DNA of 64,000 nt from a bacterium (GTDB lineage Bacteria; Patescibacteriota; Patescibacteriia; JBAXGH01): NCBI GenBank assembly GCA_037139515.1, contig JBAXGH010000002.1:17727-81726 (forward strand). Direction: 5' to 3'. Within the stretch, counting starts at the first letter, position 1, and each line of letters starts with the position of its first letter. Positions 2,682-31,562 of this stretch are shown here, in pieces. The translations under genes were made by a program, and so were the position numbers. The notes beneath the pieces were generated by a model. It did no database searches, was not told the origin of the DNA, and saw only the letters and a list, made by a program, of their open reading frames with translations.

Positions 2682-2706
2682 AAATCTGAAACTCTTTAGC
2701 TGAGTA

Positions 2707-3564: not shown

Positions 3565-3565
3565 A

Positions 3566-6447: not shown

Positions 6448-6467
6448 ATTAGAATGCGCTCGGCTTA

Positions 6468-10846: not shown

Positions 10847-10853
10847 AAAGTGT

Positions 10854-13784: not shown

Positions 13785-13819
13785 AGAAAAACAAAAACAC
13801 GGATTATGATTCCGTGTTT
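13785..13819 (-). terminator. Rho-independent terminator after the giant gene
   Basis: Hairpin CACGGA-ttatgat-TCCGTG flanked by A and T runs, directly 3' of the stop codon at 13820. Confidence 0.55.
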
Positions 13820-16800
13820 TTATGGTGTTGGCGTAGATTCTGCTGGTTCTGGAGCTGAACTTGGATCAGCGGGCGGAGCAGGTACTTCTTCCAACGTCGG
13901 AGCTGGCTCAAGAGGAGCTGGTTCAATCACAGGAGTAATAACCGGCTCAACCGCAGGCGCCGCCGGGGCCACTACAGGTTCGATAACCGGCTCGACGACC
14001 ACCGGAGTCGGCTCAACAACCGGAGGAGGCACAACTACTGCCGGATCGCTCACGATTACCTCTGCCGGTGCCGTAGGCGTGGTGGTTTCCGCTGGCACCG
14101 TAGAAACCGTAGACTCAGCCGGTGCTGTCAAAGTTGTCGTATTATTCTGAACCGGTTCCGAGGCGATAACCGGTGCCGGGTCCGCGACAATCGGCCGCTC
14201 ATCAACTAAGTCAACTATCCAATAACTCAGTTTAACCCCGGTCAATGTCGGCGAAGCGAGCTTTACCGAGAAAGACCCCTCATGCTTATCCTGAACCCAC
14301 GAAACCGAGCCTGGATTCCCCTGCCACGAAAGGAAAATCTCGCTATTTTCATGCGCCGAAGGGTTTGTGATCACAACCGTATCCACGCCAATCGGGAAAA
14401 TAACCGAGTCCAGCGTAGCTGCTTCCTGCGTCTTCGTAATGATGAGTCCACCGGTTTTCGTTGTCTTTACAGCCAGAGCTCCGGCTTCATCAATCGACCA
14501 GTTCTGACCGCGAATCGCCTTGATATTCGTAATCGAGAAGCCGCGGAAATCGATATCTTGATAAATTTGAAGGCCCTGATTCTGTGGCGCCGCAACTTCG
14601 GTCGCGATATTGATCGGCACCGCGTTTTCAGTTTTCACATAAACGATTACCAAGCCTTCAACAGAAGTCGCCGAAAGCGCATAACCGATGGTTTTTGTGG
14701 CTGAAGAAGTCGCTTTAGTGGCAAAGCCCGGGCGCGTCGGAGAAACCGTAAGCGCATCGCCAATCGCAATCGGACCGTTTTCAACCGTCACCTTGGTTGG
14801 TACGCGACCGGCAAGCGCTACCGGAACCTTCTTTTCAGTCTTATCCCACTCACCCGCAAGGAAACCTGGGCGAGTTGAAATGATACCCAAAAGTAGGTTT
14901 TGTTCGCTGGAAGTCGCTCGTTTTACGTGTTCGTTATAGAGCGGATCGATAGCGACGACTTCACCGGCACCCAAAGTTTCATCTTTCGTCGGGAAAAGCT
15001 CAGCAAAATCATATGAACCTGTCGCCCACCCGGCGGCATTCGTGCGCATATAGTCACTCGGCGAAGCATCTGAATCGTAGTATATGTACTTCGAATTCTG
15101 CGTCGAACCCTTATCTGATAAGTATAACTTTCCGGCGATTGAAACATCACCAGACTGGTTCACCGAGAAGACTTCCGCGCCGGCAGTATTCGCGATTGCG
15201 AGTTTCGAAGTCGAAGCGTTGGTTGTAACATTCGAAATCTTGAAAGACGTAGCGAGCGCCGCCGAACCGTCCCAACCGGAACCGGCAAAGTTGATATATT
15301 CAGAGTCATACCCCGGAACCAAAGCCGTAGCTGTATTTTTTGCCCGAGTCGTAACCGAATCGCCAAGATAAGTCAGAACTCCGTCGGACGTAAGCGTCGC
15401 GCCGATAAAGTATTCAGCCTTCGCAAAAACCATTATCGTACCAGCACCAGGACCGGCAAAAGCGCTTAGGGCGCGGCCGATAATCATGCCTGGCTTTGTT
15501 GATTTCATACCAACGCCAGCCGCTGAAGAAGATGTAATCGCATCGCCCACCGCAATCGGACCATTTTCATCGTTAACCTTAACGATAACGCGTCCGACAA
15601 GAGCGATCGGCATCGGGTTATCAGCCGTATCAATATTGTAACCAATCGAGTTAAAATCACCGGCTTTGGTTGGATCAGAAACTATACCGAAAAGCTTTGA
15701 CTCGTAAGTCGAAGAGCTTTTTACGAGCTGTTTGATGGTGTCGCCGTCAATCGTCGTAACATCATCTGCACCAATCGAAACGATATCGCCGCTCGCAATG
15801 CCAGCCGCGACCGGATATTGCTCGGCATAATCGGCAGCCGGAGTGCTGCTACAGTCACGAAGCTCATAAACTGAGGTCGCTGTCGGCGAAGTGGTGTTGC
15901 CGAGCGACGAACAGACCGCCGTAGTACTTGCGGTGCTTCCGAGCGCCACCGAAACCGTTCCAGCATTGCCGTTGATATTCAAACGCGTCGTACCGCCGGT
16001 ACCGCTAGTTTTAAATGTGATATCGCCAATTGCGCCATCTGATCCACCAAAACCTCCACCGGTACCTTTCACACCACCGGCAATAGTAACCGTTCCACCG
16101 TTTCCACCGTTCCCACCCGTACCACCAGTTATGCCGGTTGCATTGCCACCATTTCCACCGACAATCTGAATCATGCTTCCGGCACCGCCGTTAGCTCCGT
16201 TATTGCTGGTCGTCGTAGCACCACCAGCACCACCAGAAGCACCATTAATTTGGATTACGCTACCATTGCCACCCGCGCCCGGAGTCCCTCCGCCTCCTGG
16301 CTGAGTCATATCACCGCCCTTGCCACCAGCGGCTGCAGTAATCACGAAGGCGGATCCGTTTCCACCAGCATAACCAGGTATCAAGGTCGCCCCCGAATTC
16401 GCGCCGTCACCTCCGGCTCCAAGTGTAACCGTGAAAGCACCGCCATTTGTTCCGACGGAACCAGACCCAGCATAACCATTACCAGCCTTCAAAGTTACGG
16501 CATCGCCGTTATATGAAGATGATGTGCTGTTACCACCCTTAATCGTCAAAAGTCCATTACCGCCATTAATGTTGCCGATCGTATGGTTCGACATCTGAAG
16601 AAGATTCAAATCATCCAAAATCGTCGCGGTTACCGTAAGTTCATCAGCCGTAGCGTTACCTATAACCGTATTCCCGTTTGCATTCAAGCTGCCGGCAACA
16701 ACCGTGTTGCCCGCCGATGTAACGGTGAAGTTTGATGTCGCCCCGGTACCGACCGAGAAAAGCTGGGAAGGTGCGGTGGTGCCAATGCCAACATTGCCGC

Positions 16801-19800
16801 TCGGTAATATCGTCATTTTTATATCCGAATCAACATAATTGCCAGCACCAGAACTATTGACCGAGAAGTTCAAATCCCCGGTTCCTAACTGATCAAGGGT
16901 AATAGCGGCATTTCGAGTACCTATTTCGAGCCCAAAACCCGGAATAGCACCCGCAGGCGTGCCGACATTCAATACGCCCATTCCTAATTTCTTGTATTTT
17001 GTAGACGAAAGAACGTACTCAGCGACTGTCCCGTGAACCATGCCTGAACCATTCACAGCAAGTCTGCTTCCAACCACGGGAGACGAAGAGGATCCGACGC
17101 TGACGGTGCCATCATCGCGAACAAAGAAAAGCGAAGTATCAGCTGAGTCGGTCACATTAAGAGCAGATGTAGCGCTCGTAGTACTGGAACTCTTTACAAC
17201 AAGCTTTGATCCCGGTGAAGCAACGCCTCCGATAGAAACACGGCCGGTGCCGTCTGTGATCAAAAGCTGATTGACGCCGGAGTTAAAGAAGGAAAAATCA
17301 GCATTACTGCCGTTACGACCAGTGCCCACCAACCACTCATCTGAACCAGCGGTCGCGAATCTTATAGCAGCATCGTCGCTCACAGCACCGCGATCAAGTC
17401 GCATCGAAACAAAGTCCGGGGAATCAATAATGACGGCTGGGTCACCAGTCAAAGCTCCAGGAACAACCACGAGCTTAGCGCTCGGACTCGAAGTGCCGAT
17501 GCCGACATTGCCAGATTCAACCACCAAAGCCGCCGAATTCGTAATTGTCGCGTTTGTGCCGGCAACCGGAGCTCCGCTAATCGAAAGCGTGGCGGCATTT
17601 GTGATTGTTGAAGCGCCCACGAAGGCGTAAGTCGGAGCCTGAATCCGCATGGCACGCTGATTTGTGATTGCACCAGTTGCAAATTGAACTGTTCGTGCCA
17701 GGTTAAAATTGATATCAGTAGCTTCGGCGCTTGCAGTCAGGGCCGTATCAGCCGCACCCGTGACCGTAAGAATGCTCGGCGACAAACCGGTTCTGGCCGG
17801 AGGCGCCACAATCAAAGCACCGTCTGTTTTCAACGTCGAAACAGCAGAACGATAAAGATTCGTATCGGCAGATGCACCGAAAAATATACCTCCTTCGGCG
17901 CTCGTGATGTCATCACGAGATGAGACCCAAACAGTCTTAGCTCCAGTACCCTGCGCGGACTCAATAGCTATCCCCACGTTGGAAGACTGACCAATAGTCT
18001 GTTGTCTAATATAGACACCCGTCGCATTCGAAATATACCCCCCGCCCGATGCCGTCATTTCACCAGCCTCGACACCGATCATATCGCTAGGTCCAGCACC
18101 ACCTATAACATATGGCGTCGCCCGCACACCGACAACCGACCCACCAGAGCCGCTTGTTCGATATGGTCTAGCATCCATACCAATCATCGACATAACCGGC
18201 TGACCAACACCACCGCCGCCGGAGGATATATTAGAATCAATACCGCTAAAAGTATTTCCGTTGGCGCTCGAGTAAGACAGCGATGAATTCAACATCAAAG
18301 AAGCATAATCCCCATTTCCGAAACTCACATCAGAGGAAATGCTCATGATATTCTTAGAAGCAGACACCGGCTCACTTGTTCCAACCCTCAACGTCCCGTC
18401 ACCATGCACCACGAGATGAGCCGTAGCATCAACATCAGCAATATTCATGATCGGCCGTCTAACCGTGAACATGGCACCTGGGAAAAGTGGTGTATATGGC
18501 CCTTCGAAATATCCACCCACAACTGCTAAGGTATCTGTAACCACCCGCACGACGGTTTCGCTAGGCGCTAAAAAGCTTACAATAGTCATGACGTCACCAG
18601 GCCTAATCTCAGTCAAGAAAGCAGTTCCGCTTCCAGTAACCACATTATACGGATGTCGAACATTAATAGTTTGTGTCGACCCATCTCCAAGAGCGATGTC
18701 CGTCGCAAGCATCGTGTCTCCATAGATAGCTGTCACAACCGCATAGGTCGCAGGTGCCGAAGAGAACGAAATCTCATCTCCGACAACCAAAGAAGTAGAG
18801 AACGTCGTACTGGATCCAAAAATAAAGGTAGTCGCATTCGCATCTGTTGTGCCTCCAATATCAGATATAGACGCCCCTGTTTCAATCGTCCCGTTTCCGC
18901 CGGTTGCGACCGATCCCTTAACCGCCAAATTGGCAGTTGGAGTGGTGGTTCCAATACCGACATTTCCAGCCGCAGAATCCGCGATAAGCGCATAAGATGT
19001 ACCCGAAGTCACTGTCCCGCCGGTGATTTTGATACCGGTGGAAGTAAGTACTCCACCAGCTTGTGTGATATCCGGCATGGTCAAATCAAGCCCAGTCCAT
19101 GTTGGAGTACCCGATACACTCGCTACCGCCCCTGGAGACTCAATCGAGATTCCCTTGATTGCTTCTGTGCCAGTAGCCGTTGTTGCCCCTGGAAGTGTCA
19201 AAACCATTCCAGAAACACTTTGAGTGACGTTCGTGACACCGGTTTTTAAATCAAGCGCCGAACCAACCAGAGATCCGCTCAGAGTTGTCGCAGTGCCATA
19301 AGCGATATTCTGAATTGTGCCGGAGGTATTTTTGGAATTTAGATAAAGCAAGTTCGCCGAAGAAACGTTCGTACCGGTAAGGGTAAGCGCCACAGCATCA
19401 GACGAAGGCGTGGTTGAAATTAAGCCGGCCGAAGTCACCTGAAAAAGATCGCCGTCGCCCACCGTGAGCATCGCTGCCGGAGTAGTATCTCCAATACCGA
19501 CATTGGTCGATACGACTGCGCCATTAAAGCCATTAACGCTGCCAAGTACCATGCAGTTACCGCATCCAACTTGGGCTTGGTACCCAATTGCCGAAGCATT
19601 CATGAGGCCAGAAGAAGCCACATCAGCCCCGACACCTACAAAAGTATTGCGAGAACCAGTTGTGTTAGTAAGACCGGTGCTATAACCCACGCCGGTATTA
19701 TTGTCGCCAGTTGTATTGACAAGAGAATACGAACCTAACCCAGAATTAAACTCCCCGCTAGTGTTAGATTGCAATGCGTAACTTCCAATACCTGTGTTTC

Positions 19801-22800
19801 CACCACCGGCGTCATTAACGAGTAATGCGTTATAGCCAAATGCCGCATTATCTATTCCTACATCAAGGGCGTTCAAAGCATAGGCTCCGGTCGCCGTGTT
19901 TCTGTCTCCAGATGTAAGCGCGAGCATAGCATTGCCGCCAAGTGAAGCATTATTTGAACCAGATGTCAGTAAGGCGAAGGCTGAATTTCCGACCGCAATA
20001 TTATCGGTACCCGAAGCTGTAAAGTTGCCTGCTCCCGACCCGAGGAAGATGTTAGCACCATAGTCATGCAGGAATCGCGAGCCGCCAACAGTCACCACGC
20101 CAACGCTACTCGAAGTGGTCGTTGCCAAAGCTAAATTACCATCAAGACGAGCATCACCATCAACTTCTAAGCCGCCACCAATAGCTAACAAATTAGTTGC
20201 GCGTGTTGAACCAATCGTCGGACTGCCGATTCTAACTACCCCGTTTACCCCGGTTCCGCTTCCATTACCGCCAAGCAAAACAATGTCGCCACCATTAGAA
20301 GTCGCCGAGATGCCAAGGCCACCGGTAACCTCCACATTGCCAGCATTACCCGAATCACTACCCGAAGTTCCACCGTTCAAGACCAGATTGCCTCCGGCGC
20401 TATTTCCGTTCCCATTTCCAGGCCTAACGGTCAGTTGATTTCCAGCAACATCCGGATTGGCGGTAGTGATCCCTATTGTACGATCGGCACCATTTCTAAA
20501 ATACATGTCCGAACCGTATATCAAACTGCTTGCGTTAATCGTTACCTGATCAAGAGCTGAACCGATGTTGATAAAATCAGTGGCAGCATTGTTAGTACCG
20601 ATATTTATCGTGTTTCCAGCATTTCCATTGCCGATTCCAATCGTCTTAACGGCAGAGCCCGAGCCAATATTAATAGCCTCAGCGCTCCCATCATTACCAA
20701 TTTCTATATTTCCCGTGGTAGCACTATTCAACGTTAAAGTAGTATTTGTGCCGCCAGAAGAAAGTGTGACAGCCCCGGTACCAGAATACGACTGCGAGGC
20801 GCCAACAGAGACGCCCACCGTACCAGAAAGTAGCCCAGCTGAAGTGATGGTCCCTGAACCGGTTGAGGAGATATTCCCAGTTGTAGTAATCGCGCCAGCG
20901 GAAGTGAGCGAACCGGAAACGATATCGATAGCAGAACCGATACCAGCATTACTAATCTGCAGCGCATGAGCTGAAGATTCGTTGTTGCTCAATGCTATCT
21001 GAACCAATGTTCCGGTAGACAGATTTGCATGCGAGCTATCTTCCTGCACCGATAATACTGGCTCCGAACGTGCACCCCCTAAAACCGTCGCGAGTATTTC
21101 GAGTGTTTTATCATGAGCTCCATCAAAAGAATCTGATACATCCGAACGCAGGAATGACGCCGAATCAAGATCGTCAAAGGTATCGACGTTCAAGTTTGAA
21201 ACTTTGGTTGTGGATGCAACTACAAACGGAGCTGAACCGGTTGCGAGAGTCGATGTTAGTTGACCCGACATGCCGAGCGTCGTGATGCCGGAAAGGGCAC
21301 CGCCGGAAGAAACGTCCAATCCAGACGAATCAAGCTGGAAAGAGTCATCGTTTGCATTTCCGATTCGAATAACCTTAGTACCAATGTTCGCGCCGATATC
21401 AATAGCCTGTGCTCCAGTACCTCCGAGCGTAATCGAACCAGACGATGTTCCGGTCGCGATATTCACACCGAAGTCCGAGCTTGCGTTCAAATTAACCGTG
21501 GCACCGGTCACGTTGAGACCGAGATTTCCGGTGAGCAGTCCGGCTGATGTAATCGTACCAGAACCGGTTGAAGAAATATTGTTCGAAGTCGTAATCACGC
21601 CAGCGGAAGTGAGCGAACCAGAGATAATATTAAGAGCTGAACCGGAACCAGATTGAGTGATCTGAAGAGCGTGAGCGGATGAAGCCGTATCAAGCTGAAT
21701 AATCTCGGCTAAGACTCCGGTATTATTATTCGCTGCGTCATTAGCTTGCGAAACCGAAAGTACAGCGGCGGTTCGATTCCCTGCCGTGAGCGTTGAAAGC
21801 AGTGACAAAGTTTTGCTGTTAAGCCCATCAAAAGAATCCGAAGCATCAGAACGCAGGAATGACGCCGAATCAAGATCGTCAAATGTATCGACGTTCAGAT
21901 TTGAAACTTTGGTCGTTGACGCAACCACGAATGGCGCTGAACCGGTTGCGAGAGTCGAAGTGAGTTGACCCGACATGCCGAGTGTTGTGATGCCAGAGAG
22001 GGCGCCAGCGGAGGTAACATCCAGGCCTGATGAGTTGATAGCAAAGAAATCATCATTTGCATTGCCGATAGTGATGATTTTCGATGCCACGCCGGTACCA
22101 ATATCAATCGTCTGACCCATTGATCCACCGAGTGTAATCGTACCAGTCGATGTTCCGCCGGCAAGACTGACTCCGAAGTCAGAGCTGTCGTTTAAGCTCA
22201 CTGCGGCACCAGTCACAGTGAGACCGAGGTTTCCGGTTAAAAGCTGCGAAGACGTAAGCGCTCCATTCACCGTAGTCGTAATGCCGGAACGCGAAACCGA
22301 AACCGAAGTTGCGGCCACAGTTCCAAGGTTAAGCGCGCCAACCGAGTCGAGCGCCATAGTTCCGGAAGTCAAAGTCTGAATCGTAAGATTACCGCCGGCA
22401 TTGTTCCAAGAAGAAATTCCATTGGAAGCAATCGCCAAAGTCGATGAATTGATAGCCGTCGGATCGTTAACTCCGTTACCAATCGTGATAGTTTTAGCCG
22501 CAACTCCGGTCCCAATATCAATCGCCTGAGTGCCGGTACCGCCAAGCGTGATTGTGCCGGTTGAAGTTCCGGTCGCGATGTTCACACCAAAATCCGAGCT
22601 CGCATTCAAACTGACCACGGCGCCGGTCACGGTTAGGCCGAGGTTTCCGGAGAGCAGCCCAGCTGATGTAATCGTGCCAGCGCCGGTTGTCGAGATATTA
22701 TTAGTTGTGGTGATAGCACCGGCGGAAGTGAGCGAACCCGAGATAATATCAAGCGCTGAGCCAGATCCAGCTTGTGTGATTTGAAGAGCGTGAGCTGACG

Positions 22801-24046: not shown

Positions 24047-24146
24047 TCTGCGCCATTAGGAATTATATCACATACCGCCCTCTGCTTTATTGTTAATAAA
24101 AAATCAAAACGCCGCTTTGTGCGACGCTTTGATTCGTCTAAATTAA

Positions 24147-27100
24147 TTAAGTTGTTGGGGTACCGGAAAGATCAGCAACCGGAGCCACTAACCCACCATC
24201 GGTAGCTGGCACGGGTTCGACGGCTGGGGCTGGATCGCTGATTGGAGCTGGGGCTGGTTCTGGCGCAGGATCAGCTACCGGATCTGGTGCTGGTACCGGA
24301 TTAGGCACAGGATCGGTTACCGGAACTGGATCCGGTACCGCTGCTGGAGCTACTGGTTCGATCACCGCGGCTGGTTCTGTAGGCGTTGTTGTGGTAGCTG
24401 GCGCGGTTGGGACGGTTGATTCAGCGGGTACGGTTGGGGTCGTAGTTGGAGCTACCGGACCATTCGCAACCGGGTTTTGCGCGGTCACCGGACGAGTATC
24501 GTTCACATTAATAATCCAATACTCGAAACGAAGTTGCATCACAGCTGGACTGCTCAACCTGATTTCGAAGGACCCTTCAGCCTGATTATTAACCCAATAT
24601 CTAGCACCCGGGTCGCCACGGAAAGTTAAGAAGATGCGTGAATTTTCGTGGACAGATGCGTTTGTAATAACAACCATGTCTGAGTTCGCCGGGAAGTAGG
24701 CGGTGTCGATAGTCGCTTTCTCTTCGTTCACCTGAACTATATATTCATTGGACGAAACCGACTTAACCACGAGTGCGCCGTTTTCATCAATAGACCAGTT
24801 CTGACCGCGGATTGCTTTGATATTCGTAATCGAGAAGCCCCTGAAATCAACATCTTGGTAGATCTGGAAATTCTGAGTTTGTTGCGAGGTTGATTCGGTG
24901 GCTAAGTTAGTTGGGACGGCGTTTTCGGTTTTGACGTAGACGATGATGGAGGCATCAACCAGGGTGGCTTCGAGCGCATAGCCAATATTTTTTCTGGTCG
25001 AGGCTGTGGCTTTGGTGGCAAAGCCTGGGCGGGTCGGAGAAACCGTGAGGGCATCACCGACTGCGATTGGACCATTCTCAACCGTCACTTTAGTTGGAAC
25101 ACGACCAGCGAGAGCGACCGGGACCTTCTTTGAAGCCTTATCCCACTCACCCGCTAGGAAGCCAGGGCGAGTTGAGATGATACCGAGAAGGAGGTTAGGC
25201 GCCGAAGAGTCGGCTCGCTTCACGTGTTCTGGGTATAACGGATCGATTGCGACGACTTCACCGGCTCCGAGGGTTTCATCTTTGGTTGGGAAGAGTTCAG
25301 CAAAATCATAGGAACCGGTCGCCCAGCCGGCGGCATTGGTTCGCATGTAATCTGACGGCGACATGTCGGAGTCGTAGTAAATATACTTCGAAGTTTGTGC
25401 GACGCCTTTGTCGGATGGGAAGAGCTTGCCGGTAATCACGACATCACCGGATTGATTGACGCTAAAGACTTCAGCTCCAGCCGTGTTCGCAATCGCTAAT
25501 CTAGATGTTGCGGAATTGGTGGTGATATTCGAAAGCTTGAAATTCGTGGCTTGTGCAGCCGCACCATCCCAGCCGGAGCCGGTGAACGAGATCGCTTGGG
25601 AGTCATAACCTTCAACAAGCGCGGTTGCGGTGTTCTTGGCTTTTACGATTACGGAATCATTCAAATACGTAAGCGTGCCGTCGGTTGTGAGGGTGGCTCC
25701 GAGATAGTATTCAGTCTTAACAAAGACCATGACTGTGCCGGCGCCTGGACCCGCAAAGGCGGAAAGTGCGCGGCCAACAATCATGCCCGACTTTGTGGAT
25801 TTCATGCCTTCGCCGGCGGTTGAACTTGAAGTAATCGGGTCACCGACTGCGATCGAACCATTTTCGTCATTAACTTTAACTTTTACGCGACCAACGAGCG
25901 CGACTGGGAGCGGATTATCGGCCGGATTGATGTTGTAGCCGATAGAGTTAAAATCACCAGCCGTGGCAGGATCGGAAATGACGCCAATAAGTTTGGCTTC
26001 GTATGGAGCTGAAGATTTGATGAGCTCCTTAATTGTGTCACCTTGAGTCGTGGTGACGTCGGTTGTGCCAATCATGACTATGTCCCCCATCGCAGCACCG
26101 ACTTCGACCGGATACTGTTCGGCGTAGTCAGCCATTGGACCACCATTACAATCTTTGATTTCATCAATACCGGCTCCATTGGTATCGTGACAAAGTGCGT
26201 ACGGTCCAGTAATGCCAGTCGCAACAATCAAACTGACTGTGACGCGGCTATTGATGGCGACGGCCGGTTGGTTCATGCCAGCATAGCCTATGGTAATCGC
26301 TTTTGTATGAGAAGTTCCAATATTCACATCTCCATCATTTGCTGAAACGCCTGAACCGCCTAAGACGCTAATATTTCCTCCGGTTTCACCTGGAGATCCT
26401 CCGTTGCCGCCACGAAGCGTAACAGCTCCGCCGGTCGCACCGGTTCCACCATAAAGATTAACCGCTCCGCCGGAGCCATCGTTCGAGGCGCCACCAGCCA
26501 GGTTCAAAGCGCCTGCTGTGCCGAAGGCATTCGTTGTATTTCCGGAAGTAATCGTGAGATCTCTTCCATCAGTGGCAGTTGCACTCTCTATTGAAATATT
26601 GTGATTCGCGTTCTTGCCAAAAACTATTTCTCCCGCAGCATCAACTGAGAGCAGCCTGGCAGCAAAACTGTTCTGAAGCTCCATTAAATTTCCAGTTTGC
26701 GAAGCAGCACCGGTAAGCACAATACCCTTGTTTGCGGCGACCGAAACTTCAATGTCGAGCTCACCATCAGGTGTGCTGTCGGCTGGATAACCAATACTCA
26801 TGCCTCCGCCAGAAGCCTGGTTTTTTATCTTGAGACGACGCTGTTTCCCTAGTTCATCGATGTAATAATAATCATCAGTAGAGTCGTAGGCCATGACCCA
26901 GTCATTCGAATCAGTAGAATTGTGGAGGCGGACGTTGCCATCCTGAACAGTGAGCTTATCTCCCATAGGAGCCGTACCGATGCCTACGCGACCGGTCTGA
27001 TCGATCGTAAATTGGGAGTTAGCTGCTCCACCATAAATACTTACCGGACCAGTTACGTTCATACCGCGTCCAACCTGCATACCACCACGAATATCTAAAT

Positions 27101-30100
27101 CATTACCAACCTGAACGTTAGAACGCGTAGTGAGAGTTCCAGTTTCTATGCCACCCGCTTCGAGTTGTTGGATATAGGCACCACCCATATCAAAAACTTG
27201 GAGCGTAGCCGAGCTATAGTTAATTACGTAAGCATAGCGACCTTGGACATAGACGCTGTATGGATTAGTACCTGTGGTGACAGAGCCAACACTCGTTGGG
27301 CTACCCGGAGTTGAAACATCGAAGACTTGAAGTGAATTAGGAGAGACCCAATTGGTTAGATAGACATAGCGACCTTGGACAAATATTCCGGTAGAAACTG
27401 CTGCGGTGGCGATTGAACCGGCTGAAGATGGGCTTGCGGGATTTGAAATATCGAATATACGGAGCGTGGCGTCGGTAAAATCAGTTTCGTAGGCATATCG
27501 ACCCTGAACATAAAGGCCATATGGATTGATTCCTGAAGCAACTGAGTTGATGAACGTTGGGCTCGCAGGGTTCGAGACATCGTATATTTTTAAACTGCCA
27601 CTCATCGCCACATAAGCATAGCGACCTTGGACAGATACAACTCTAGGGAGAGATCCAGTTGCGACCGAGCCTACAACTACCGGACTCACAGGATTTGAGA
27701 CATCGAAGACCTGGAGAGTTCCGGCATCGCTATTAACTACGTAAGCATAACGGCCCTGAACATAAACGCTTTCCGGCGAGCTACCGGTTGCGACCGAGCT
27801 AATGGCTGACGGACTAGCTGGATTTGAAACATCAAAAATTTGAAGAGTCGCCGCGGTATTACTGACCACGTAAGCATAGAGACCCTGAACGTAAACACTG
27901 GACGGATTATTGTTGGCTGAAACCGAACCGATAGCCGCCGGACTCGCCGAATTGGACACGTCAAAAATTCGGAGGGTGTCAGAAGCCCCGGCGACGACCA
28001 CATAAGCATAGCGTCCCTGAACGTATACTCCGGTTGGGGTGGTGCCGGTGCTAATAGAGCCGGCGGCAGCGGACGGTACTTTGCCGGCTGCATGAAGTTG
28101 AGAAATTGGAGTTGCCGTGCCGATGCCGACATCGCCATTGCCAAGCACGGTTACGAAAGTTCCGCCAGAATCACCAATTTGAAGTACCTCATCGGTGGCG
28201 CCTAGATTGGTGGCAGTCGTGAAATTGAAGGCTGAACTGGTGGTGTTGCCGGATGGGAAATCTGAAGTTAGATTGATTTGACCGCCGGTCGCGGAGCCGT
28301 TTCTGGTTGTCGTAAGATTCAAAGCTCCGGCGCCGGTTGTGCCGATGAATTTTAATTCCGCCAGAACATCATTGGTTCCCCCACCTATCGCGGTGGTCGT
28401 GGAATACATCTTCAAACTTGCCGGACCGAGGTATAATTCGCGCCAACGTTTGGCCGCCGAACCCAAATCATAGGCTATATCAGTCGCCGGCGTTAAATCA
28501 CCAGTAAAAGAAACTGCGTCTGAGAAAACGAAACTCGCACCGGCTCCGGTGGCGTCAAAGGTAGTGGCACCGTTCGAGGCGGCACCCATCGTGGTGTAAT
28601 TTGAACCATCATATGCCATCCGTAACTGCGGCGAAGATGTGCTTAAGACCTCAAGTCGGCTATTTGGCGAGCTAGTCCCGATGCCAACATTCCCCGTCGA
28701 ATCAATGCGAACCTTTTCAGAGAGCGCGGCACCGGCGGCGCGAGTGATGAAGCGGAAAGAGCTATCCTCGCTTCCTTCGGTGGCGTCATCCAAAACCACA
28801 TTAAACTGCGCCACAGCGTTATTATTTCCATTTGCGTTTTCAATATAATAATCCGTTCCAAATCCGAGTCCATTTCCACCCACGGTAGCTGAATTCGTAA
28901 TCTCAAATCTTTGAGCTGCGCTAACTGCGTCGCTTGAGGCTGTAGCCGCTATCGTGAAAAGATGCGATGGAGCCGTGGTGCCGATGCCAATATTGCCATC
29001 CTTATCGATACTCATCTTTACTCCCGCGGTGGTTCCGTTCGCGGTCACAAAATCCATGCGCGCAGGAACATCAGCGCCAACAGCACCGGTCTGAACAACC
29101 TGAATCAAGCCTCCATTCAAGAATCCGGAGCCATCATTTCCCTGGAATCTGAATTGACCCAAGATATTGCCGTCCACCGTGGCGACATTGGTCGCTGAAG
29201 CGGAGTTAGATTTTTGCAAGTCGATACTTGAATAAAGAGATGCATTATCGTAAGTCGTGATGGCGGTGGTACCGTTTTCGGCGATTGTTTGGACTTGGAG
29301 TTTTGATGAAGGAGTCGTGGTGCCGATGCCGATGTTGCCGCTTACTATCAGACCATTAGCCGGAGCGGCGCTTGTGGCGGCGTAACTTCCGATTGCTACC
29401 CCTCCGTTTACATCGAGCCTGGACAATGGGGCGCCTGTGCCGATGCCGACGTTGCCGTTTTCAAGAATGCGCATTTTTTCAGATCCGGCGGTATTGAAAA
29501 TAACATCATCAGCGCCGGCGGTAGTGGTCGCGCTCAAAGTTAGCGCGCCAGTCGATTGCAGAGTGAAAGCACCATTCGCGACTGTCGACGATTCACCATA
29601 AGTAGTAGCTGCAAGAATGCCACCAGTTCCAGAGGTGAAGGAATTCGCGTAGACACTATCTTGGGCGGCAAAATCACCGTTCACGAAAGCATCATTGCCA
29701 TCCGGCACAAAACTCGCGTGGACACCAACGGGAACAGTGGTAACACCACCGGTCCAGAAATTTCCGGTTGAATCAAAGCGGCCACGCTCGACATTGTTGG
29801 TTTCAAAAGTCAGAGCAAAAGCATCATTTGTGCCAAGAATTGCATCGGCCGGGCCAAAGCTGTTTCCGCCCTGGATGAAAGCAAAACCCGAAACATCGCT
29901 CGACTGAATCGCGTTTGAGACAAAGTTAGTACCATCGCCACGGAGAAAATTGCCGGCAGTTGCGGCGTTCGCAATTCTAAAACCAGTCGCGGAATTAATA
30001 ATGCCGTTTACATCAAGCAAAGTTCCGGCCCCCGGCGCCGCGGTGCCGATACCAACTTGGCCAGTGGTTGTAATGCGCATCTTTTCGCTTTGACTCGCGG

Positions 30101-31562
30101 TTTTGAAAATGATTGCATCGGTAGTGCCGACTCCGGAGGTTGATTCAAGTGTGAGGATGGAAGCGGCCGCAGCTCCACCGATAAGAAGTGGCGTGGTGAC
30201 AGAGGTTCCGATTGTTGGCGCGTCTGAAAATGATGGGACGCCGGCATTGGCAATCAAAATCGAATTCGCTCCACCTTGAGCTGTAACCTGAATGGCTGAA
30301 GTAGTGTTGCCATAAAGTATGCCGTTTGGCGTAAAAGTCGTGGCTCCGGTACCACCATTCCCTACCGGTAGAGTGCCGGAAACTTCGGTAGCGAGTGCAA
30401 CAGCTCCGAAGCTTGGAACGGCGCCGCCATGAAGAATCTGAGACGAAGTGCCGGCGGTGGCTTGGGAGAGAGCGCCAGAACCATTGGTGAAGAGCGGGCC
30501 ACCATTTGATGAAAATCCACTGAAAGTGATAGTGCCGGAACTCGTGATGCCGGCGGCGGCTGCAATTATACCCGCAGAGCTGACTTGAAATTGACTAGTC
30601 GCGCCGACAGAGAAAAGGCTGGTGGGAGTCGTGGTGCCGATACCGACATTTCCGGTAGCTAAAATCCTGAGGCGTTCAATATTTTTGGTTTCGAGCGCGA
30701 GCGCATTTGCATCATTCGTGCCAAGAGTTGCGAGGGCGGCAAAAGAGTTGCCACTTTGAACAAAAGTGTTTGGATTACTCATGGAGACAAAGGCCGCTCC
30801 ATCATAAGCATAAAGTGTATTGCCGGTTGAATCCCAGACGACATCGCCCTCTTCCGTTCCGACGACAGCCGAAGGAGCTCCAGCATTGGTTGGGACTCTT
30901 AGACCCTGACTCGCTGAGTGCACTGGAGCTAGAATGCGACCACCGACGGCAAGATTTCTGGTGAGAGTCAAATGGCCACCAGAGTCGGTAACCGGCACGA
31001 AAGCCGCGGAGCCGCCGGACTGCGAAGTATCAAAACCATCTAAGAGAGAGGCATTTCCGGCTTGAAGGGCGGTGGCGCTTGAGCCGATGCGACGGCGCGG
31101 AGAAAGAGTTTCGCCATCAATTCTAACTTCCAACCAACGCCCTTCGGTGGTATTGAAAAGTGAATCCGGAAGCGCAATCTGTCCACTACCAGTATCGCCA
31201 AGAAGGATGTTGAAAAGCCCGTCAGCTACAGTAACGGAAACCGTGCCTGGAGAAGCACAGGTTCCGACAGCAGTCCATTTACAATTCGCAACCAAAACCG
31301 CGACTGGATCATTATAAATTATAAAACTTATCGATCTCACACCATCAGGAACCGTCACTTTTTGAGCATCAGTTAAGCGCCCTTGATAAGACAGAATCTG
31401 AGGCGTGTCGAGAGTGGCTTTAGAAACACTTGGCAATAAAACAGCGAGAGAAACAAAAACAAGCACGCCGATAGCAAGCATTCTTGCTCCGGGATGCAAT
31501 AACAAACCAAAAACTCTGGATTTTAGATTGCCTTCAAGCATGGACAAGGCAGACCTCACCAT
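24147..31562 (-). CDS. Giant surface protein A (2471 aa): signal anchor, shared N-terminal module, LVIVD-repeat beta-propeller region, shared C-terminal ~650 aa module, Pro-rich tail
   Basis: 7.4 kb open frame. About 7 repeats of VYVQGRYAYVV..ATLQIFDVSNPASP (LVIVD-type). The C-terminal region (PMADYAEQYPV...GSYDFAELFPTKDETLGAGEVVAIDP...) is ~75 % identical to giant B. Ends in a PVPxP tail. Confidence 0.85.
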   Translation of the reverse strand: MVRSALSMLEGNLKSRVFGLLLHPGARMLAIGVLVFVSLAVLLPSVSKATLDTPQILSYQGRLTDAQKVTVPDGVRSISFIIYNDPVAVLVANCKWTAVGTCASPGTVSVTVADGLFNILLGDTGSGQIALPDSLFNTTEGRWLEVRIDGETLSPRRRIGSSATALQAGNASLLDGFDTSQSGGSAAFVPVTDSGGHLTLTRNLAVGGRILAPVHSASQGLRVPTNAGAPSAVVGTEEGDVVWDSTGNTLYAYDGAAFVSMSNPNTFVQSGNSFAALATLGTNDANALALETKNIERLRILATGNVGIGTTTPTSLFSVGATSQFQVSSAGIIAAAAGITSSGTITFSGFSSNGGPLFTNGSGALSQATAGTSSQILHGGAVPSFGAVALATEVSGTLPVGNGGTGATTFTPNGILYGNTTSAIQVTAQGGANSILIANAGVPSFSDAPTIGTSVTTPLLIGGAAAASILTLESTSGVGTTDAIIFKTASQSEKMRITTTGQVGIGTAAPGAGTLLDVNGIINSATGFRIANAATAGNFLRGDGTNFVSNAIQSSDVSGFAFIQGGNSFGPADAILGTNDAFALTFETNNVERGRFDSTGNFWTGGVTTVPVGVHASFVPDGNDAFVNGDFAAQDSVYANSFTSGTGGILAATTYGESSTVANGAFTLQSTGALTLSATTTAGADDVIFNTAGSEKMRILENGNVGIGTGAPLSRLDVNGGVAIGSYAATSAAPANGLIVSGNIGIGTTTPSSKLQVQTIAENGTTAITTYDNASLYSSIDLQKSNSASATNVATVDGNILGQFRFQGNDGSGFLNGGLIQVVQTGAVGADVPARMDFVTANGTTAGVKMSIDKDGNIGIGTTAPSHLFTIAATASSDAVSAAQRFEITNSATVGGNGLGFGTDYYIENANGNNNAVAQFNVVLDDATEGSEDSSFRFITRAAGAALSEKVRIDSTGNVGIGTSSPNSRLEVLSTSSPQLRMAYDGSNYTTMGAASNGATTFDATGAGASFVFSDAVSFTGDLTPATDIAYDLGSAAKRWRELYLGPASLKMYSTTTAIGGGTNDVLAELKFIGTTGAGALNLTTTRNGSATGGQINLTSDFPSGNTTSSAFNFTTATNLGATDEVLQIGDSGGTFVTVLGNGDVGIGTATPISQLHAAGKVPSAAAGSISTGTTPTGVYVQGRYAYVVVAGASDTLRIFDVSNSASPAAIGSVSANNNPSSVYVQGLYAYVVSNTAATLQIFDVSNPASPSAISSVATGSSPESVYVQGRYAYVVNSDAGTLQVFDVSNPVSPVVVGSVATGSLPRVVSVQGRYAYVAMSGSLKIYDVSNPASPTFINSVASGINPYGLYVQGRYAYETDFTDATLRIFDISNPASPSSAGSIATAAVSTGIFVQGRYVYLTNWVSPNSLQVFDVSTPGSPTSVGSVTTGTNPYSVYVQGRYAYVINYSSATLQVFDMGGAYIQQLEAGGIETGTLTTRSNVQVGNDLDIRGGMQVGRGMNVTGPVSIYGGAANSQFTIDQTGRVGIGTAPMGDKLTVQDGNVRLHNSTDSNDWVMAYDSTDDYYYIDELGKQRRLKIKNQASGGGMSIGYPADSTPDGELDIEVSVAANKGIVLTGAASQTGNLMELQNSFAARLLSVDAAGEIVFGKNANHNISIESATATDGRDLTITSGNTTNAFGTAGALNLAGGASNDGSGGAVNLYGGTGATGGAVTLRGGNGGSPGETGGNISVLGGSGVSANDGDVNIGTSHTKAITIGYAGMNQPAVAINSRVTVSLIVATGITGPYALCHDTNGAGIDEIKDCNGGPMADYAEQYPVEVGAAMGDIVMIGTTDVTTTQGDTIKELIKSSAPYEAKLIGVISDPATAGDFNSIGYNINPADNPLPVALVGRVKVKVNDENGSIAVGDPITSSSTAGEGMKSTKSGMIVGRALSAFAGPGAGTVMVFVKTEYYLGATLTTDGTLTYLNDSVIVKAKNTATALVEGYDSQAISFTGSGWDGAAAQATNFKLSNITTNSATSRLAIANTAGAEVFSVNQSGDVVITGKLFPSDKGVAQTSKYIYYDSDMSPSDYMRTNAAGWATGSYDFAELFPTKDETLGAGEVVAIDPLYPEHVKRADSSAPNLLLGIISTRPGFLAGEWDKASKKVPVALAGRVPTKVTVENGPIAVGDALTVSPTRPGFATKATASTRKNIGYALEATLVDASIIVYVKTENAVPTNLATESTSQQTQNFQIYQDVDFRGFSITNIKAIRGQNWSIDENGALVVKSVSSNEYIVQVNEEKATIDTAYFPANSDMVVITNASVHENSRIFLTFRGDPGARYWVNNQAEGSFEIRLSSPAVMQLRFEYWIINVNDTRPVTAQNPVANGPVAPTTTPTVPAESTVPTAPATTTTPTEPAAVIEPVAPAAVPDPVPVTDPVPNPVPAPDPVADPAPEPAPAPISDPAPAVEPVPATDGGLVAPVADLSGTPTT
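27150..28070 (-). repeat. LVIVD-type repeat array (coding) in giant gene A
   Basis: YAYVV...L(Q/R)(I/V)FDVSNP(A/V)SP recurs about every 40 aa, 7 times. Confidence 0.65.

What the first reader, a model, noticed from the sequence alone, without database searches (positions are those of the whole stretch)
13820..31562. Tandem giant paralogs built by module shuffling (shared ends, different cores)
The 3408-aa and 2471-aa proteins share an N-terminal ~190 aa module (LDTPQILSYQGRLTDAQKVTV...GETLSPRR...ALQAGNASLLDGF). They also share a C-terminal ~650 aa module at about 75 % identity. The centres are unrelated: LVIVD beta-propeller repeats in one, and four ~235 aa tandem repeats plus Gly-rich solenoid-like tracts in the other. 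Both end in Pro-rich PVxP tails that could span the cell wall. Together they occupy 28 % of the window, which for a small genome implies a major envelope or host-attachment role.
Basis: seen in the sequence. Interest (0 to 1): 0.65.

Follow-up and report, generated by a model that had tools for sequence, protein, structure and literature searches.

The report
Giant phage-fibre-like surface proteins, Uhrbacteria
Two neighbouring giant genes of an uncultured ultra-small bacterium encode secreted proteins that look like oversized phage tail fibres, with the same head and tail pieces but different middles, which makes them good candidates for how such bacteria recognise the cells they live on.

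Summary
ORF A (13820-24046, 3408 aa) and ORF B (24147-31562, 2471 aa) are intact. They share an N-terminal module (58% identity) and a C-terminal module (74% over 589 aa), and their centres are unrelated.

The shared ends are recognisable domains, not low complexity.
- **N-module:** a Sec signal peptide followed by a domain homologous to the N-terminal domain of Bdellovibrio "mosaic adhesive trimer" (MAT) fibres.
- **Fibre body:** B's fibre body aligns to MAT crystal structures. A carries a phage tail-spike-like segment.
- **C-module:** two tandem copies of the phi29 gp12-type (Peptidase G2) auto-chaperone barrel, each opening with a conserved D-x-A-E motif. An Ig-like domain and a Pro-rich tail follow.

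The same bookends flank cores of 177-2331 aa in 48 complete family members, almost all from Candidatus Uhrbacteria MAGs. Of the core pairs, 69% share no similarity.

A Wzy_C-type membrane protein lies just downstream in 66 of 80 related loci and also in this window. This suggests O-glycosylation of the fibre.

Best reading: secreted, probably trimeric, glycosylated surface fibres with swappable receptor-binding cores. Trimerisation, autocleavage, glycosylation and host binding are all inferred, not shown. This is a new variant of a known kind.

The parts
13820..24046 (-). ORF A, 3408 aa from the GTG start. NCBI and JGI call 3404 aa from the ATG at 24034. Accession MEI7741003.1, annotated 'hypothetical protein'.
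24147..31562 (-). ORF B, 2471 aa (MEI7741004.1). ENA calls 2444 aa from Met28.
23915..24046 (-). A signal peptide, aa 1-44 (...PAATHA|TLDTPQ).
   Evidence: Read from the sequence. The same AxA|..YQGR layout occurs in 46 relatives.
23447..23914 (-). A N-module, aa 45-200. MAT_N-like beta-sandwich plus helix, with a Cys pair at 86/108.
   Evidence: NCBIfam NF053851 E 3.2e-05 for A. 52 of 56 family members hit it, best 1.9e-12. Model pLDDT 77.
20621..23446 (-). A repeat region, aa 201-1142. Three full 235-aa units, one half unit and a partial unit.
19457..20059 (-). A aa 1330-1530, a phage tail-spike-like repeat segment.
   Evidence: PHROG 4636 'tail spike protein' E 6.6e-18. The same segment is shared with other giant fibre proteins.
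16607..19459 (-). A aa 1530-2480. Fibre body with three GNVGIGTxxP capping-loop-type motifs, at aa 1696, 2181 and 2419.
   Evidence: The motif type aligns to Bdellovibrio MAT structures in B.
15947..16579 (-). A aa 2490-2700, Gly-rich tract upstream of C1. Weakly shared with B (33% identity).
15377..15832 (-). A C1, aa 2739-2890. First G2-type auto-chaperone-like barrel, opening with A|DYAEQYP and preceded by a Cys pair at 2712/2732.
15011..15376 (-). A inter-barrel segment, aa 2891-3012 (beta-rich, 80% identical to B).
14612..15010 (-). A C2, aa 3013-3145. Second G2-type barrel, opening with Y|DFAELFP.
   Evidence: The family profile aligns DFAEmFpS to residue 1 of the cleaved phi29 gp12 chain 3GQH. 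Pfam PF11962 E 0.013. BFVD 'Preneck appendage protein' E 1.1e-8, TM 0.69.
14213..14518 (-). A aa 3177-3278, Ig-like beta-sandwich (pLDDT above 90).
13823..14194 (-). A Pro/Val/Ala/Thr/Glu-rich tail, aa 3285-3408 (26% Pro).
31416..31562 (-). B signal peptide, aa 1-49 (...PSVSKA|TLDTPQ).
30963..31415 (-). B N-module, aa 50-200 (MAT_N-like).
   Evidence: NF053851 E 0.0037
28083..30815 (-). B aa 250-1160. MAT-type fibre body with seven GxVGIGTxxP units.
   Evidence: Matches to PDB 8OML (E 3e-9), 8OND (6e-9), 8ON4, 8OL4 and 8OJN. PHROG tail-fibre families. Motifs.
27111..28076 (-). B aa 1163-1484, seven-bladed LVIVD beta-propeller.
   Evidence: Pfam PF08309 E 1.2e-32; seven YVQGRYAY motifs.
25674..26129 (-). 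B C1, aa 1812-1963 (A|DYAEQYP, Cys pair at 1791/1805).
24909..25307 (-). B C2, aa 2086-2218 (Y|DFAELFP).
24150..24815 (-). B Ig-like domain (about aa 2250-2352, boundaries taken from the alignment with A) and Pro-rich tail (aa 2357-2471, 28% Pro).
24101..24135 (-). Terminator-like hairpin (15-bp stem plus T-run) right after B's stop. A TGATATAAT extended -10-like element follows at about 24062-24070, so A and B look like separate transcription units.
   Evidence: consensus matches only
13791..13823 (-). Terminator-like hairpin (13-bp stem plus T-run) overlapping A's stop codon.
11726..13759 (-). Wzy_C (O-antigen-ligase family) polytopic membrane protein, 677 aa, 60 nt downstream of A. It is homologous to the gene found just downstream of the fibre gene in 66 of 80 related loci.
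   Evidence: Pfam Wzy_C E 3.8e-17; synteny; hmmsearch E 5.5e-12; hhalign 91.5%, E 8.5e-7, 515 columns.
1254..11648 (-). Lower-GC glycan-type gene cluster: WbsX glycosyltransferase, GT1+GT2 fusion, four or five methyltransferase-domain proteins and a sulfatase-family protein. A possible source of the glycan. The association is inferred.

Best explanation
A and B are two paralogous members of a family of Sec-secreted surface fibre proteins that is widespread in Candidatus Uhrbacteria (Patescibacteria/CPR). The family belongs to the same superfamily as Bdellovibrio MAT (mosaic adhesive trimer) fibres and phage tail fibres.

Proposed mechanism, step by step:
1. The signal peptide is removed.
2. 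The conserved ~150-aa N-domain docks the fibre at the producer's surface.
3. The long beta-rich body trimerises. It is driven from the C-terminal end by two tandem phi29 gp12-type (Peptidase G2) intramolecular-chaperone barrels.
4. These barrels probably self-cleave at their D-x-A-E boundaries (A2738|D2739 and Y3012|D3013 in A; A1811|D1812 and Y2085|D2086 in B).
5. The variable core acts as the ligand-binding, specificity-determining part. In B this is MAT-type prisms plus a 7-bladed LVIVD propeller. In A it is 235-aa repeats, a tail-spike-like segment and Gly-rich tracts.
6. The adjacent Wzy_C-type membrane protein probably O-glycosylates the fibre. A plausible site is the Ser/Thr/Pro/Ala-rich tail, and the neighbouring gene cluster may build the glycan.

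Shown: the domain homologies, the family architecture and the synteny.
Inferred: trimer state, surface display, autocleavage, glycosylation and binding to a host cell.
For: N-domain
- 52 of 56 family N-modules hit NCBIfam NF053851 Bdello_MAT_N (best E 1.9e-12; A 3.2e-05; B 0.0037).
- The layout of signal peptide followed directly by a beta-rich domain of about 130 aa matches the published MAT definition (PMC10769870).

Fibre body
- B aligns to MAT crystal structures 8OML and 8OND (E 3e-9 and 6e-9). The 'SEKMRI..GNVGIGT..P...L.V' units superpose on the MAT capping-loop units.
- There are PHROG tail-fibre and tail-spike hits in both proteins.

C-module
- D, A and E of the C2 motif are invariant in a 50-sequence alignment that was not selected by that motif.
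- The profile's best PDB hit is phi29 gp12 chain 3GQH, aligned from its first post-cleavage residue.
- 9 of 50 members hit Pfam Peptidase_G2 (best 2.9e-9).
- The AF2 model (pLDDT 83) matches viral 'Preneck appendage protein (barrel)' models at E 1e-8 and 6e-7, TM 0.63-0.69.
- In phage contigs the same domain is strictly C-terminal, with D-x-AE 119-126 aa from the stop and preceded by Ala in 61 of 66 cases. This is the arrangement expected of a cleaved chaperone, and C1 has that same A|D junction.

Architecture
- 46 of 46 complete C-module ORFs in other genomes also have the N-module, and cores are hypervariable.
- dN/dS of 0.05-0.15 on the shared modules indicates function.

Glycosylation
- Wzy_C synteny holds in 66 of 80 loci plus this window.
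- Wzy_C plus a C-terminal TPR is the make-up of the O-oligosaccharyltransferases PglL and WsfB, and such genes usually sit next to their target in the same orientation (PMC2943079; PMC3643930).
Against: - For A and B themselves, the Pfam G2 and NCBIfam MAT_N scores are below the curated cut-offs (15.4 vs 25 bits; 23.8 and 17.1 vs 60 bits).
- Foldseek against solved PDB structures did not return gp12. The best hits there were phage capsid cement and decoration barrels at E about 7e-3.
- Unlike every phage example, the barrels are duplicated and are followed by about 260 more residues. A tail that is universally retained is odd for a piece that gets discarded, so the barrels may be uncleaved structural or tip domains.
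- In MATs the variable part is the C-terminal tip. Here the C-terminus is the conserved part.
- The orientation on the cell is unknown. It is also only inferred for Bdellovibrio.
- A's core is almost entirely without detectable homologues.
- No structure of a trimer could be computed.
- The window's Wzy_C protein has no Pfam-detectable TPR, and Wzy_C proteins can also be glycan ligases or polymerases.
- The organism's lifestyle is unknown.
Confidence: 0.6

Rival explanations
1. The C-terminal module is not a cleaved chaperone. It is a permanent, conserved functional end: either the distal tip (C1 barrel plus inter-barrel segment) or the cell-proximal anchor. In the anchor case the Pro-rich tail would thread through the wall or S-layer, and the MAT_N domain would be distal.
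For: - The tandem barrels, a further domain and a low-complexity tail are retained in 79 of 82 family ORFs. The last D-x-AE lies 363-424 aa from the stop, against about 122 aa in phages.
- Purifying selection is strong on C1, mid and C2.
- The barrel fold also matches non-cleaving phage cement and decoration proteins.
- P22-type auto-chaperone fins stay in the mature protein (PMC4690869).
Against: - The Asp and Glu of the gp12-type boundary motif are kept in both copies almost without exception, which is hard to explain for a purely structural barrel.
- There is no LPXTG, transmembrane segment or known wall-binding domain at the C-terminus.
Confidence: 0.25
2. They are structural envelope proteins (an S-layer-like or sheath glycoprotein) rather than host-specific adhesins. 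The variable cores would then reflect antigenic or phage-escape diversification.
For: - The link with a Wzy_C gene and a methyltransferase-rich glycan cluster resembles S-layer glycosylation (slg) loci.
- The genes take up a very large share of the coding sequence (27.7% of the window).
- High Ser/Thr/Gly content.
Against: - No SLH or other S-layer domain was found.
- All detectable homology is to fibrous adhesins and phage receptor-binding proteins.
- Core lengths vary 13-fold between species, which does not suit a lattice-forming protein.
Confidence: 0.1
3. The genes are phage or prophage tail-fibre genes, or a recent phage insertion, and not cellular genes.
For: PHROG tail-fibre and tail-spike hits, and a gp12-type domain that is common in IMG/VR contigs.
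Against: - Both proteins and all 46 complete relatives have Sec signal peptides.
- The neighbours are ParA, ParB, an SPFH protein, Wzy_C and glycosyltransferases, and no phage gene was seen.
- In other Uhrbacteria the locus is syntenic with housekeeping genes (YchF, ribosomal protein S6).
- GC content matches the rest of the contig from 14 kb onward.
Confidence: 0.03
4. Assembly artefact: collapsed or chimeric repeats creating false giant ORFs.
For: The ORFs contain internal repeats and come from a metagenome assembly.
Against: - An independent JGI contig gives the same 3404-aa protein A with one substitution.
- Repeat copies are only 72-79% identical at the DNA level.
- Both reading frames are open.
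- Relatives of 1235-3278 aa occur in dozens of MAGs.
- B has no independent copy on record, so it is slightly less secure than A.
Confidence: 0.02

Closest known systems
Bdellovibrio bacteriovorus MAT (mosaic adhesive trimer) fibres, e.g. Bd2133, Bd1334, Bd3182 (Caulton et al. 2024, PMC10769870)
   Same: - A signal peptide followed directly by a conserved beta-rich N-domain.
- A fibre body made of repeated units with the V-G-x-G-x-x-x-P-x-x-x-L capping-loop motif, with direct sequence matches to 8OML, 8OND, 8ON4, 8OL4 and 8OJN.
- A mosaic, module-swapped architecture.
- Paralogues with similar ends and exchanged parts.
   Different: - Two to three times longer (2471 and 3408 aa against about 1000 aa).
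- The conserved part includes the C-terminus and the variable part is central. In MATs the C-terminal tip varies.
- The terminal chaperone is a tandem G2 (gp12) type, not S74.
- An Ig-like domain and a Pro-rich tail follow the chaperone.
- The host lineage is Patescibacteria, which is absent from the paper's list of MAT-bearing taxa.
- Scores to the Bdellovibrio-trained N-domain model are below its cut-off.
Bacillus phage phi29 gp12 pre-neck appendage (tail spike) auto-chaperone domain, MEROPS/Pfam Peptidase G2 (PDB 3GQH, 3SUC)
   Same: - The D-F-A-E-x-F boundary motif aligns to the first residue of the cleaved gp12 chain.
- It has a beta-barrel body.
- It sits at the C-terminal side of a beta-rich trimeric fibre or spike.
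- It is common as the terminal domain of phage fibre proteins.
   Different: - Present as two tandem copies about 277 aa apart.
- Not terminal: 363-424 aa remain after the last motif.
- It is in a Sec-secreted cellular protein.
- Cleavage is untested.
- The window proteins score below Pfam's threshold.
Phage fibres and spikes with S74 intramolecular chaperones (T5 pb1, K1F endosialidase) and S74-type MATs
   Same: The logic is the same: a conserved C-terminal folding module on a variable receptor-binding fibre. Some relatives of this family carry S74 domains instead of, or as well as, the G2 type.
   Different: A different chaperone fold and catalytic motif (Ser/Lys SDxxxK against D-x-A-E).
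PglL/PilO/WsfB-type O-oligosaccharyltransferases encoded next to their target protein
   Same: A Wzy_C polytopic membrane protein sits immediately downstream of a secreted surface protein, in the same orientation. In the relatives it carries a C-terminal TPR.
   Different: - The target would be a giant fibre, not a pilin or S-layer protein.
- No PglL-specific motifs were tested.
- No activity is known.
Tandem giant extracellular proteins of small genomes (Apilactobacillus kunkeei Giant1-5, PMC12863079, abstract only)
   Same: Consecutive genes for extracellular proteins of more than 3000 aa occupy a notable share of a small genome.
   Different: No homology was tested or implied, and the domain content is different.

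Membership tests
MAT (mosaic adhesive trimer) superfamily | N-terminal signal peptide | tested here: met
   A hydrophobic core and an AxA-type site lie directly before TLDTPQ in A (after aa 44) and B (after aa 49). The same layout occurs in 46 relatives. It was read from the sequence. No predictor was run.
MAT (mosaic adhesive trimer) superfamily | Conserved beta-rich ~130-aa domain immediately after the signal peptide | tested here: inconclusive
   Homology is supported at family level: NF053851 is hit by 52 of 56 N-modules, best E 1.9e-12, and the model is a beta-sandwich. A (23.8 bits) and B (17.1 bits) are far below the 60-bit curated cut-off, which is tuned to Bdellovibrio. A fold comparison with AFDB MAT models could not be run.
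MAT (mosaic adhesive trimer) superfamily | Fibre body of beta-helix or prism units with capping-loop motif | tested here: met
   B aa 600-1020 matches 8OML at E 3e-9 and 8OND at E 6e-9, with alignments centred on the motif. There are seven motifs in B and three in A.
MAT (mosaic adhesive trimer) superfamily | Intertwined homotrimer displayed on the cell surface | not testable with these tools
   Only monomer prediction is available, and there are no localisation data.
MAT (mosaic adhesive trimer) superfamily | Variable C-terminal tip (S74 chaperone or adhesive domain) | tested here: not met
   The C-terminal ~650 aa is the most conserved part of the family, and the variability is central.
Peptidase G2 / phi29 gp12 auto-chaperone (PF11962) | Sequence match to the family model | tested here: inconclusive
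   A's C2 scores E 0.013, 15.4 bits, against a cut-off of 25. 9 of 50 family members match at E<=0.01, best 2.9e-9. The family profile against 3GQH gives E 0.009.
Peptidase G2 / phi29 gp12 auto-chaperone (PF11962) | Asp...Glu boundary motif (D-F-A-E in gp12) at the start of the domain | tested here: met
   DYAE and DFAE occur in both proteins. D, A and E are invariant in A1 for C2. D-x-[A]-E is present in all but two C1 copies. Caveat: the genome and viral loci were retrieved with a pattern containing YDFAE, so only one search is unbiased.
Peptidase G2 / phi29 gp12 auto-chaperone (PF11962) | Barrel fold of the pre-neck appendage chaperone | tested here: met
Peptidase G2 / phi29 gp12 auto-chaperone (PF11962) | Terminal position (domain ends the protein) and release by autocleavage | tested here: not met
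   Position is not met. The copies are tandem and the last motif is 393 aa (median) from the stop, against 122 aa in 66 phage ORFs. Cleavage itself cannot be tested here.
LVIVD repeat beta-propeller (PF08309) | Multiple LVIVD repeats above threshold | tested here: met
   B aa 1163-1484: E 1.2e-32, 111 bits against a cut-off of 20.2. Seven YVQGRYAY blades. It is the only one of 48 family cores with this domain.
Sortase-anchored (LPXTG) wall proteins | C-terminal LPXTG, hydrophobic segment and charged tail | tested here: not met
   No LPx[TSA]G is present in either protein, and the tails end in Pro/Thr/Ser-rich sequence.
Trimeric autotransporter adhesins | C-terminal YadA-type membrane anchor and Hep_Hag/HIM head repeats | tested here: not met
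   No Pfam hit in A or B, even at E 0.5 on segments.
PglL/WsfB-type O-oligosaccharyltransferase (the neighbouring gene 11726-13759) | Wzy_C domain in a polytopic membrane protein | tested here: met
   PF04932 E 3.8e-17.
PglL/WsfB-type O-oligosaccharyltransferase (the neighbouring gene 11726-13759) | C-terminal TPR; adjacency to the target in the same orientation; PglL_A/B motifs; transferase activity | tested here: inconclusive
   - Adjacency is met: 66 of 80 loci plus this window.
- TPR is clear in the relatives, but in the window protein there are only weak traces (E 0.17-1).
- PglL-specific motifs and activity were not tested.

The most novel reading that the evidence does not exclude
Uhrbacteria, and possibly other Patescibacteria, have adapted the phage and predator receptor-binding-fibre toolkit into very long glycosylated surface fibres. 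A rough scaling from Bd2133 suggests lengths on the order of 100 nm.

The variable cores would set host range. In this organism there are two: a beta-propeller version and a repeat-rich version.

The duplicated gp12-type barrels would represent a new two-step or partly retained auto-chaperone system, with one barrel cleaved and one kept as a conserved distal or docking domain. This maturation would be coupled to an adjacent O-oligosaccharyltransferase.
Probability: 0.3. Interest if true: 0.75.

Novelty: new variant of a known kind. Interest (0 to 1): 0.58.

Why it matters
How ultra-small Patescibacteria find and hold on to their hosts is largely unknown. The reviews point mainly to type IV pili and to unnamed 'adhesins' (PMC11665869).

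This family gives a concrete, lineage-wide candidate with a clear structure:
- constant docking and folding modules;
- swappable cores;
- a linked putative glycosyltransferase.

That makes several things directly testable: autocleavage assays, binding of recombinant cores, and tracking of core variation against host range.

It also extends the MAT and phage-fibre superfamily to the CPR, and it shows a tandem, non-terminal use of the phi29 gp12-type auto-chaperone. I found no description of such an arrangement in the papers I could search.

Tried and rejected
Searches that found nothing or little
- Whole-protein Pfam, NCBIfam, PHROG and PDB searches found nothing for A. Splitting A into segments recovered only the tail-spike-like piece.
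- A's core searched against 5.8 billion proteins found itself plus short local matches (<=14% coverage) to other giant fibre proteins.
- Foldseek of the C-module against solved PDB chains gave only weak cement-protein and fibre hits.
- The N-module model had no significant BFVD match, and its profile had no PDB match.
- No LPXTG motif is present.

Tools or records that were unavailable
It was redone with A5.
- Exact-sequence contig look-ups for B (as 2471 aa) and for P0179 found nothing.
- The original gp12 paper (PMC2692858) is not held. What I state about its catalytic Asp/Glu is from memory.

A corrected error
- A first BLASTP-level synteny test suggested that the Wzy_C, SPFH and ParB neighbours were not conserved. 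For Wzy_C this was wrong, and profile methods overturned it.

Explanations rejected
- Recent gene conversion between A and B: DNA identity is about 73% and dS is saturated.
- Prophage origin and assembly artefact: see the rival explanations.

Literature
- Searches linking MAT fibres with Patescibacteria or Uhrbacteria returned nothing relevant.


Full report
**1. The observation**

The minus strand carries two uninterrupted ORFs: A (13820-24046, 3408 aa) and B (24147-31562, 2471 aa). They are separated by 100 nt. Together they cover 27.7% of the window.

BLASTP of A against B returns only two HSPs:
- The N-termini: A3-218 ~ B6-212, 58% identity, E 2e-64.
- The C-termini: A2606-3399 ~ B1681-2469, 62% identity over 811 columns.

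Across A2696-3284 the identity is 74%. In 50-column windows it reaches 92-94% and then falls to about 50% in the last globular domain. The centres share nothing detectable.

A contains three full 235-aa repeat units (217-450, 589-823, 824-1058), a half unit (451-563) and a further partial unit. B contains seven LVIVD blades at 1163-1484. Both proteins end in tails with 26-28% proline.

**2. It is not an artefact**

- The shared parts are only about 73% identical at the DNA level, with no long identical tracts.
- Synonymous sites are saturated, and dN/dS is 0.05-0.15 for the N-module, C1 and C2.
- The window comes from ENA contig ERZ27300037:k141_46655 (92 kb). The two proteins are MEI7741003.1 and MEI7741004.1, 'hypothetical protein' of an unclassified MAG.
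- A separate JGI contig encodes A at the same length with a single substitution. B has no independent copy on record.

**3. What the shared N-module is**

Both proteins start with a hydrophobic signal sequence ending in an AxA-type site (THA|TLDTPQ in A, SKA|TLDTPQ in B). The next ~150 residues give a weak hit to NCBIfam NF053851, the N-terminal domain of Bdellovibrio 'mosaic adhesive trimer' (MAT) fibre proteins.

At family level the link is firm. 52 of 56 N-modules from relatives hit that model, with a best E of 1.9e-12, although all score below its 60-bit cut-off.

The AF2 model (pLDDT 77) is a beta-sandwich followed by a helix. It has no significant viral match and no PDB sequence match. 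That fits the published remark that the MAT N-domain has no structural homologue.

The module belongs to a very large superfamily. A profile finds 99,536 cluster representatives at E<=1e-3 among 1.84 billion.

**4. What the bodies are**

B's region 250-1160 matches crystal structures of Bdellovibrio MAT fibres: 8OML at E 3e-9, 8OND/Bd2133 at 6e-9, and also 8ON4, 8OL4 and 8OJN. The alignments centre on the unit 'SEKMRI..GNVGIGT..P...L.V'. This is the MAT capping-loop element, whose published consensus is V-G-G/N-small-x-x-P-x-x-x-L. B has seven such units and A has three.

B also hits PHROG tail-fibre families. A's aa 1330-1530 hits a PHROG tail-spike family at E 6.6e-18. The rest of A's core is dark. 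No Pfam hit appears even at E 0.5. In a search of 5.8 billion proteins, no hit covers more than 14% of it, and the partial hits are themselves giant fibre proteins, many carrying S74 chaperone domains.

**5. What the shared C-module is**

It contains an internal duplication: A2762-2878 ~ A3029-3140 at 37% identity, and likewise in B. Each copy opens with D-[YF]-A-E: ADYAEQYP and YDFAELFP.

An alignment of 50 homologues was collected by word-index and HMMER, not by motif. In it the D, A and E of the second motif are invariant. The evidence that this is a gp12-type barrel is:
- The profile's best PDB match is the cleaved auto-chaperone domain of the phage phi29 pre-neck appendage protein gp12 (3GQH, E 0.009). 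DFAEmFpS is aligned to residue 1, DFAEYFES, which is the first residue after gp12's self-cleavage site.
- Nine of the 50 members reach Pfam Peptidase_G2 (best 2.9e-9), and seven reach Phage_cement_2.
- The AF2 model (pLDDT 83) matches BFVD entries named 'Preneck appendage protein' at E 1.1e-8 (TM 0.69, 31% identity) and '...barrel' at 5.8e-7. It also matches many phage fibre proteins.

In IMG/VR contigs the same domain occurs as a single, strictly terminal unit. There the D-x-A-E motif lies 119-126 aa from the stop and is preceded by Ala in 61 of 66 ORFs.

The family here differs in three ways:
- It has two copies, spaced a median of 277 aa apart, in 79 of 82 ORFs.
- The last motif is 363-424 aa from the stop.
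- An Ig-like sandwich and a low-complexity tail follow the second barrel.

C1 keeps the phage-like A|D junction. C2 has a family-specific GSY|DFAEMFPS. A Cys pair precedes C1 in 56 of 79 members. The literature states that gp12's C-terminal domain is cut off after folding and has a beta-stranded body.

**6. The family**

A scan of one genome per GTDB species with the C-module found 156 loci. The best 80 are almost all Candidatus Uhrbacteria or Patescibacteria MAGs, although many TPA records are labelled 'uncultured Gammaproteobacteria'.

- Every complete ORF with the C-module (46 of 46) also has the N-module directly after a signal peptide. This was not imposed by the search.
- Total lengths run from 1235 to 3278 aa and cores from 177 to 2323 aa. 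A has the longest core, at 2331 aa.
- Among 1128 core pairs, 777 show no significant similarity. A's and B's cores are at most 8% covered by any other core.
- Pfam sees almost nothing in the 48 cores. Only B has LVIVD.

'Same bookends, different cores' is therefore a property of the whole family.

Paralogues within a genome are each other's closest relatives:
- A-B: 62-66% for the C-module, 60% for the N-module.
- L028-L035: 62% and 58%.
- L023-L041: 64-66%.
- A tandem pair in L041: 70% for the N-module.
- Between genomes: 40-55%.

With dS saturated, this points to old lineage-specific duplications followed by core replacement. Slow concerted evolution cannot be excluded.

**7. Context**

Upstream of B lie ParA, ParB and an SPFH protein. 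Farther along are SecY, ribosomal proteins, aminoacyl-tRNA synthetases and tRNAs. This is chromosomal, not phage.

Strong terminator-like hairpins follow both B (24135-24101) and A (13823-13791). A TGATATAAT element precedes A. These are consensus matches only.

Sixty nucleotides downstream of A is a 677-aa Wzy_C (O-antigen-ligase family) membrane protein. After it comes a lower-GC cluster (0.41-0.45 against about 0.50) of glycosyltransferases, methyltransferases and a sulfatase-family protein.

A BLASTP check at first suggested this neighbour was not conserved. Clustering all flanking ORFs then showed that 66 of 80 related loci have a ~790-aa polytopic membrane protein with a C-terminal TPR downstream on the same strand, in 61 cases within 2 kb. 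Its profile matches the window's Wzy_C protein (hmmsearch E 5.5e-12; hhalign 91.5%, E 8.5e-7, 515 columns).

Wzy_C plus a C-terminal TPR is the make-up of the protein O-oligosaccharyltransferases PglL and WsfB. Such genes usually sit beside their target in the same orientation, and PglL also modifies flexible low-complexity regions.

Forty loci also have a ~1900-aa fn3/CarboxypepD_reg protein upstream. It has no counterpart in the window.

**8. Most likely mechanism**

Shown: the homologies, the architecture and the synteny described above.

Inferred:
- Sec export and signal-peptide removal.
- Docking at the cell surface through the MAT_N-like domain.
- C-to-N trimer folding nucleated by the gp12-type barrels.
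- Self-cleavage at one or both D-x-A-E junctions.
- Display of the variable core as the ligand-binding part.
- O-glycosylation by the adjacent Wzy_C enzyme.

The Bd2133 crystal fragment is about 150 Å for 370 residues. Scaling from it, the mature fibres would be roughly 110 nm (A) and 60-70 nm (B). This is a rough extrapolation.

The main doubt is whether the tandem barrels are cleaved at all. Their non-terminal position and the universally retained tail argue for at least partial retention.

**9. Comparison and novelty**

The proteins work like MAT fibres and phage receptor-binding fibres. They share two defining MAT parts, the N-domain and the capping-loop fibre units. They fail the 'variable C-terminal tip' feature, and they use a different, duplicated chaperone type.

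The MAT paper's survey of other taxa lists no Patescibacteria and no G2-type terminus. Searches of the held literature found no link between MAT fibres and CPR bacteria.

I therefore file this as a new variant of a known kind. It is of moderate to good interest, because it offers a concrete and testable candidate for host recognition in a lineage where that mechanism is largely unknown.

Noticed in passing
window 1-14000 versus 14001-64000: GC content steps from 0.41-0.45 to about 0.49-0.52 at the end of ORF A. The low-GC block is a run of glycan-type genes: WbsX GT, GT1+GT2 fusion, several methyltransferases, a 938-aa sulfatase-family protein and Wzy_C. It may be a horizontally exchanged or hypervariable glycan locus.
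   Followed up: partly
L001-L080 (e.g. L062:1658-7498): In 40 of 80 related Uhrbacteria loci the fibre gene is preceded on the same strand by another giant (~1900 aa) secreted protein with fn3, Pur_ac_phosph_N-like and CarboxypepD_reg domains. The window has no homologue, and B sits in that position instead.
   Followed up: partly
L046:6260-12028: Here the family gene is split by a single in-frame stop into an N-module ORF (6260-8104) and a C-module ORF (8108-12028). It could be a pseudogene, a sequencing error or a recoded stop.
   Followed up: no
L041:4352-13006; L028 and L035 (contig JACPHX010000016.1): Other Uhrbacteria also carry paralogue pairs. In L041 a second N-module ORF starts 4 nt after the first gene's stop. 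In JACPHX010000016 two family genes lie about 10 kb apart. Unlike A and B, their cores are about 50% alignable to each other.
   Followed up: partly
A aa 2712/2732 (about 15851-15913) and B aa 1791/1805 (about 26148-26192): A Cys pair lies just upstream of the first D-x-A-E motif. It is present in 56 of 79 family members. The N-module also has a conserved Cys pair. Both suggest extracellular disulfides near the putative cleavage site.
   Followed up: partly
record titles of L002, L009, L019, L022 and others: Many TPA_asm MAG records carrying this Uhrbacteria-type gene and its synteny are titled 'uncultured Gammaproteobacteria bacterium'. This is probably a labelling problem in those records.
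   Followed up: no
P0202-P0204, P0206: Some proteins of about 1300-1550 aa contain three separate copies of the MAT_N-like module. The module as a whole has about 100,000 cluster representatives in the 1.84-billion-protein library.
   Followed up: no
window 32511-32532: A perfect bidirectional terminator-like hairpin (GACCGGCTT...AAGCCGGTT) sits between the ParB and SPFH genes.
   Followed up: no
window 36348-37280; 43445-44893 and 48101-49477: There is a tRNA cluster with two tRNA-Met(CAT) genes and tRNA-Leu(CAA). There are also two paralogous class II (Asp/Lys/Asn-type) aminoacyl-tRNA synthetase genes 3 kb apart.
   Followed up: no
window 50739-51779 (+): A 346-aa ORF with no Pfam match lies on the opposite strand from almost all other genes, in a local low-GC patch (0.43).
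   Followed up: no
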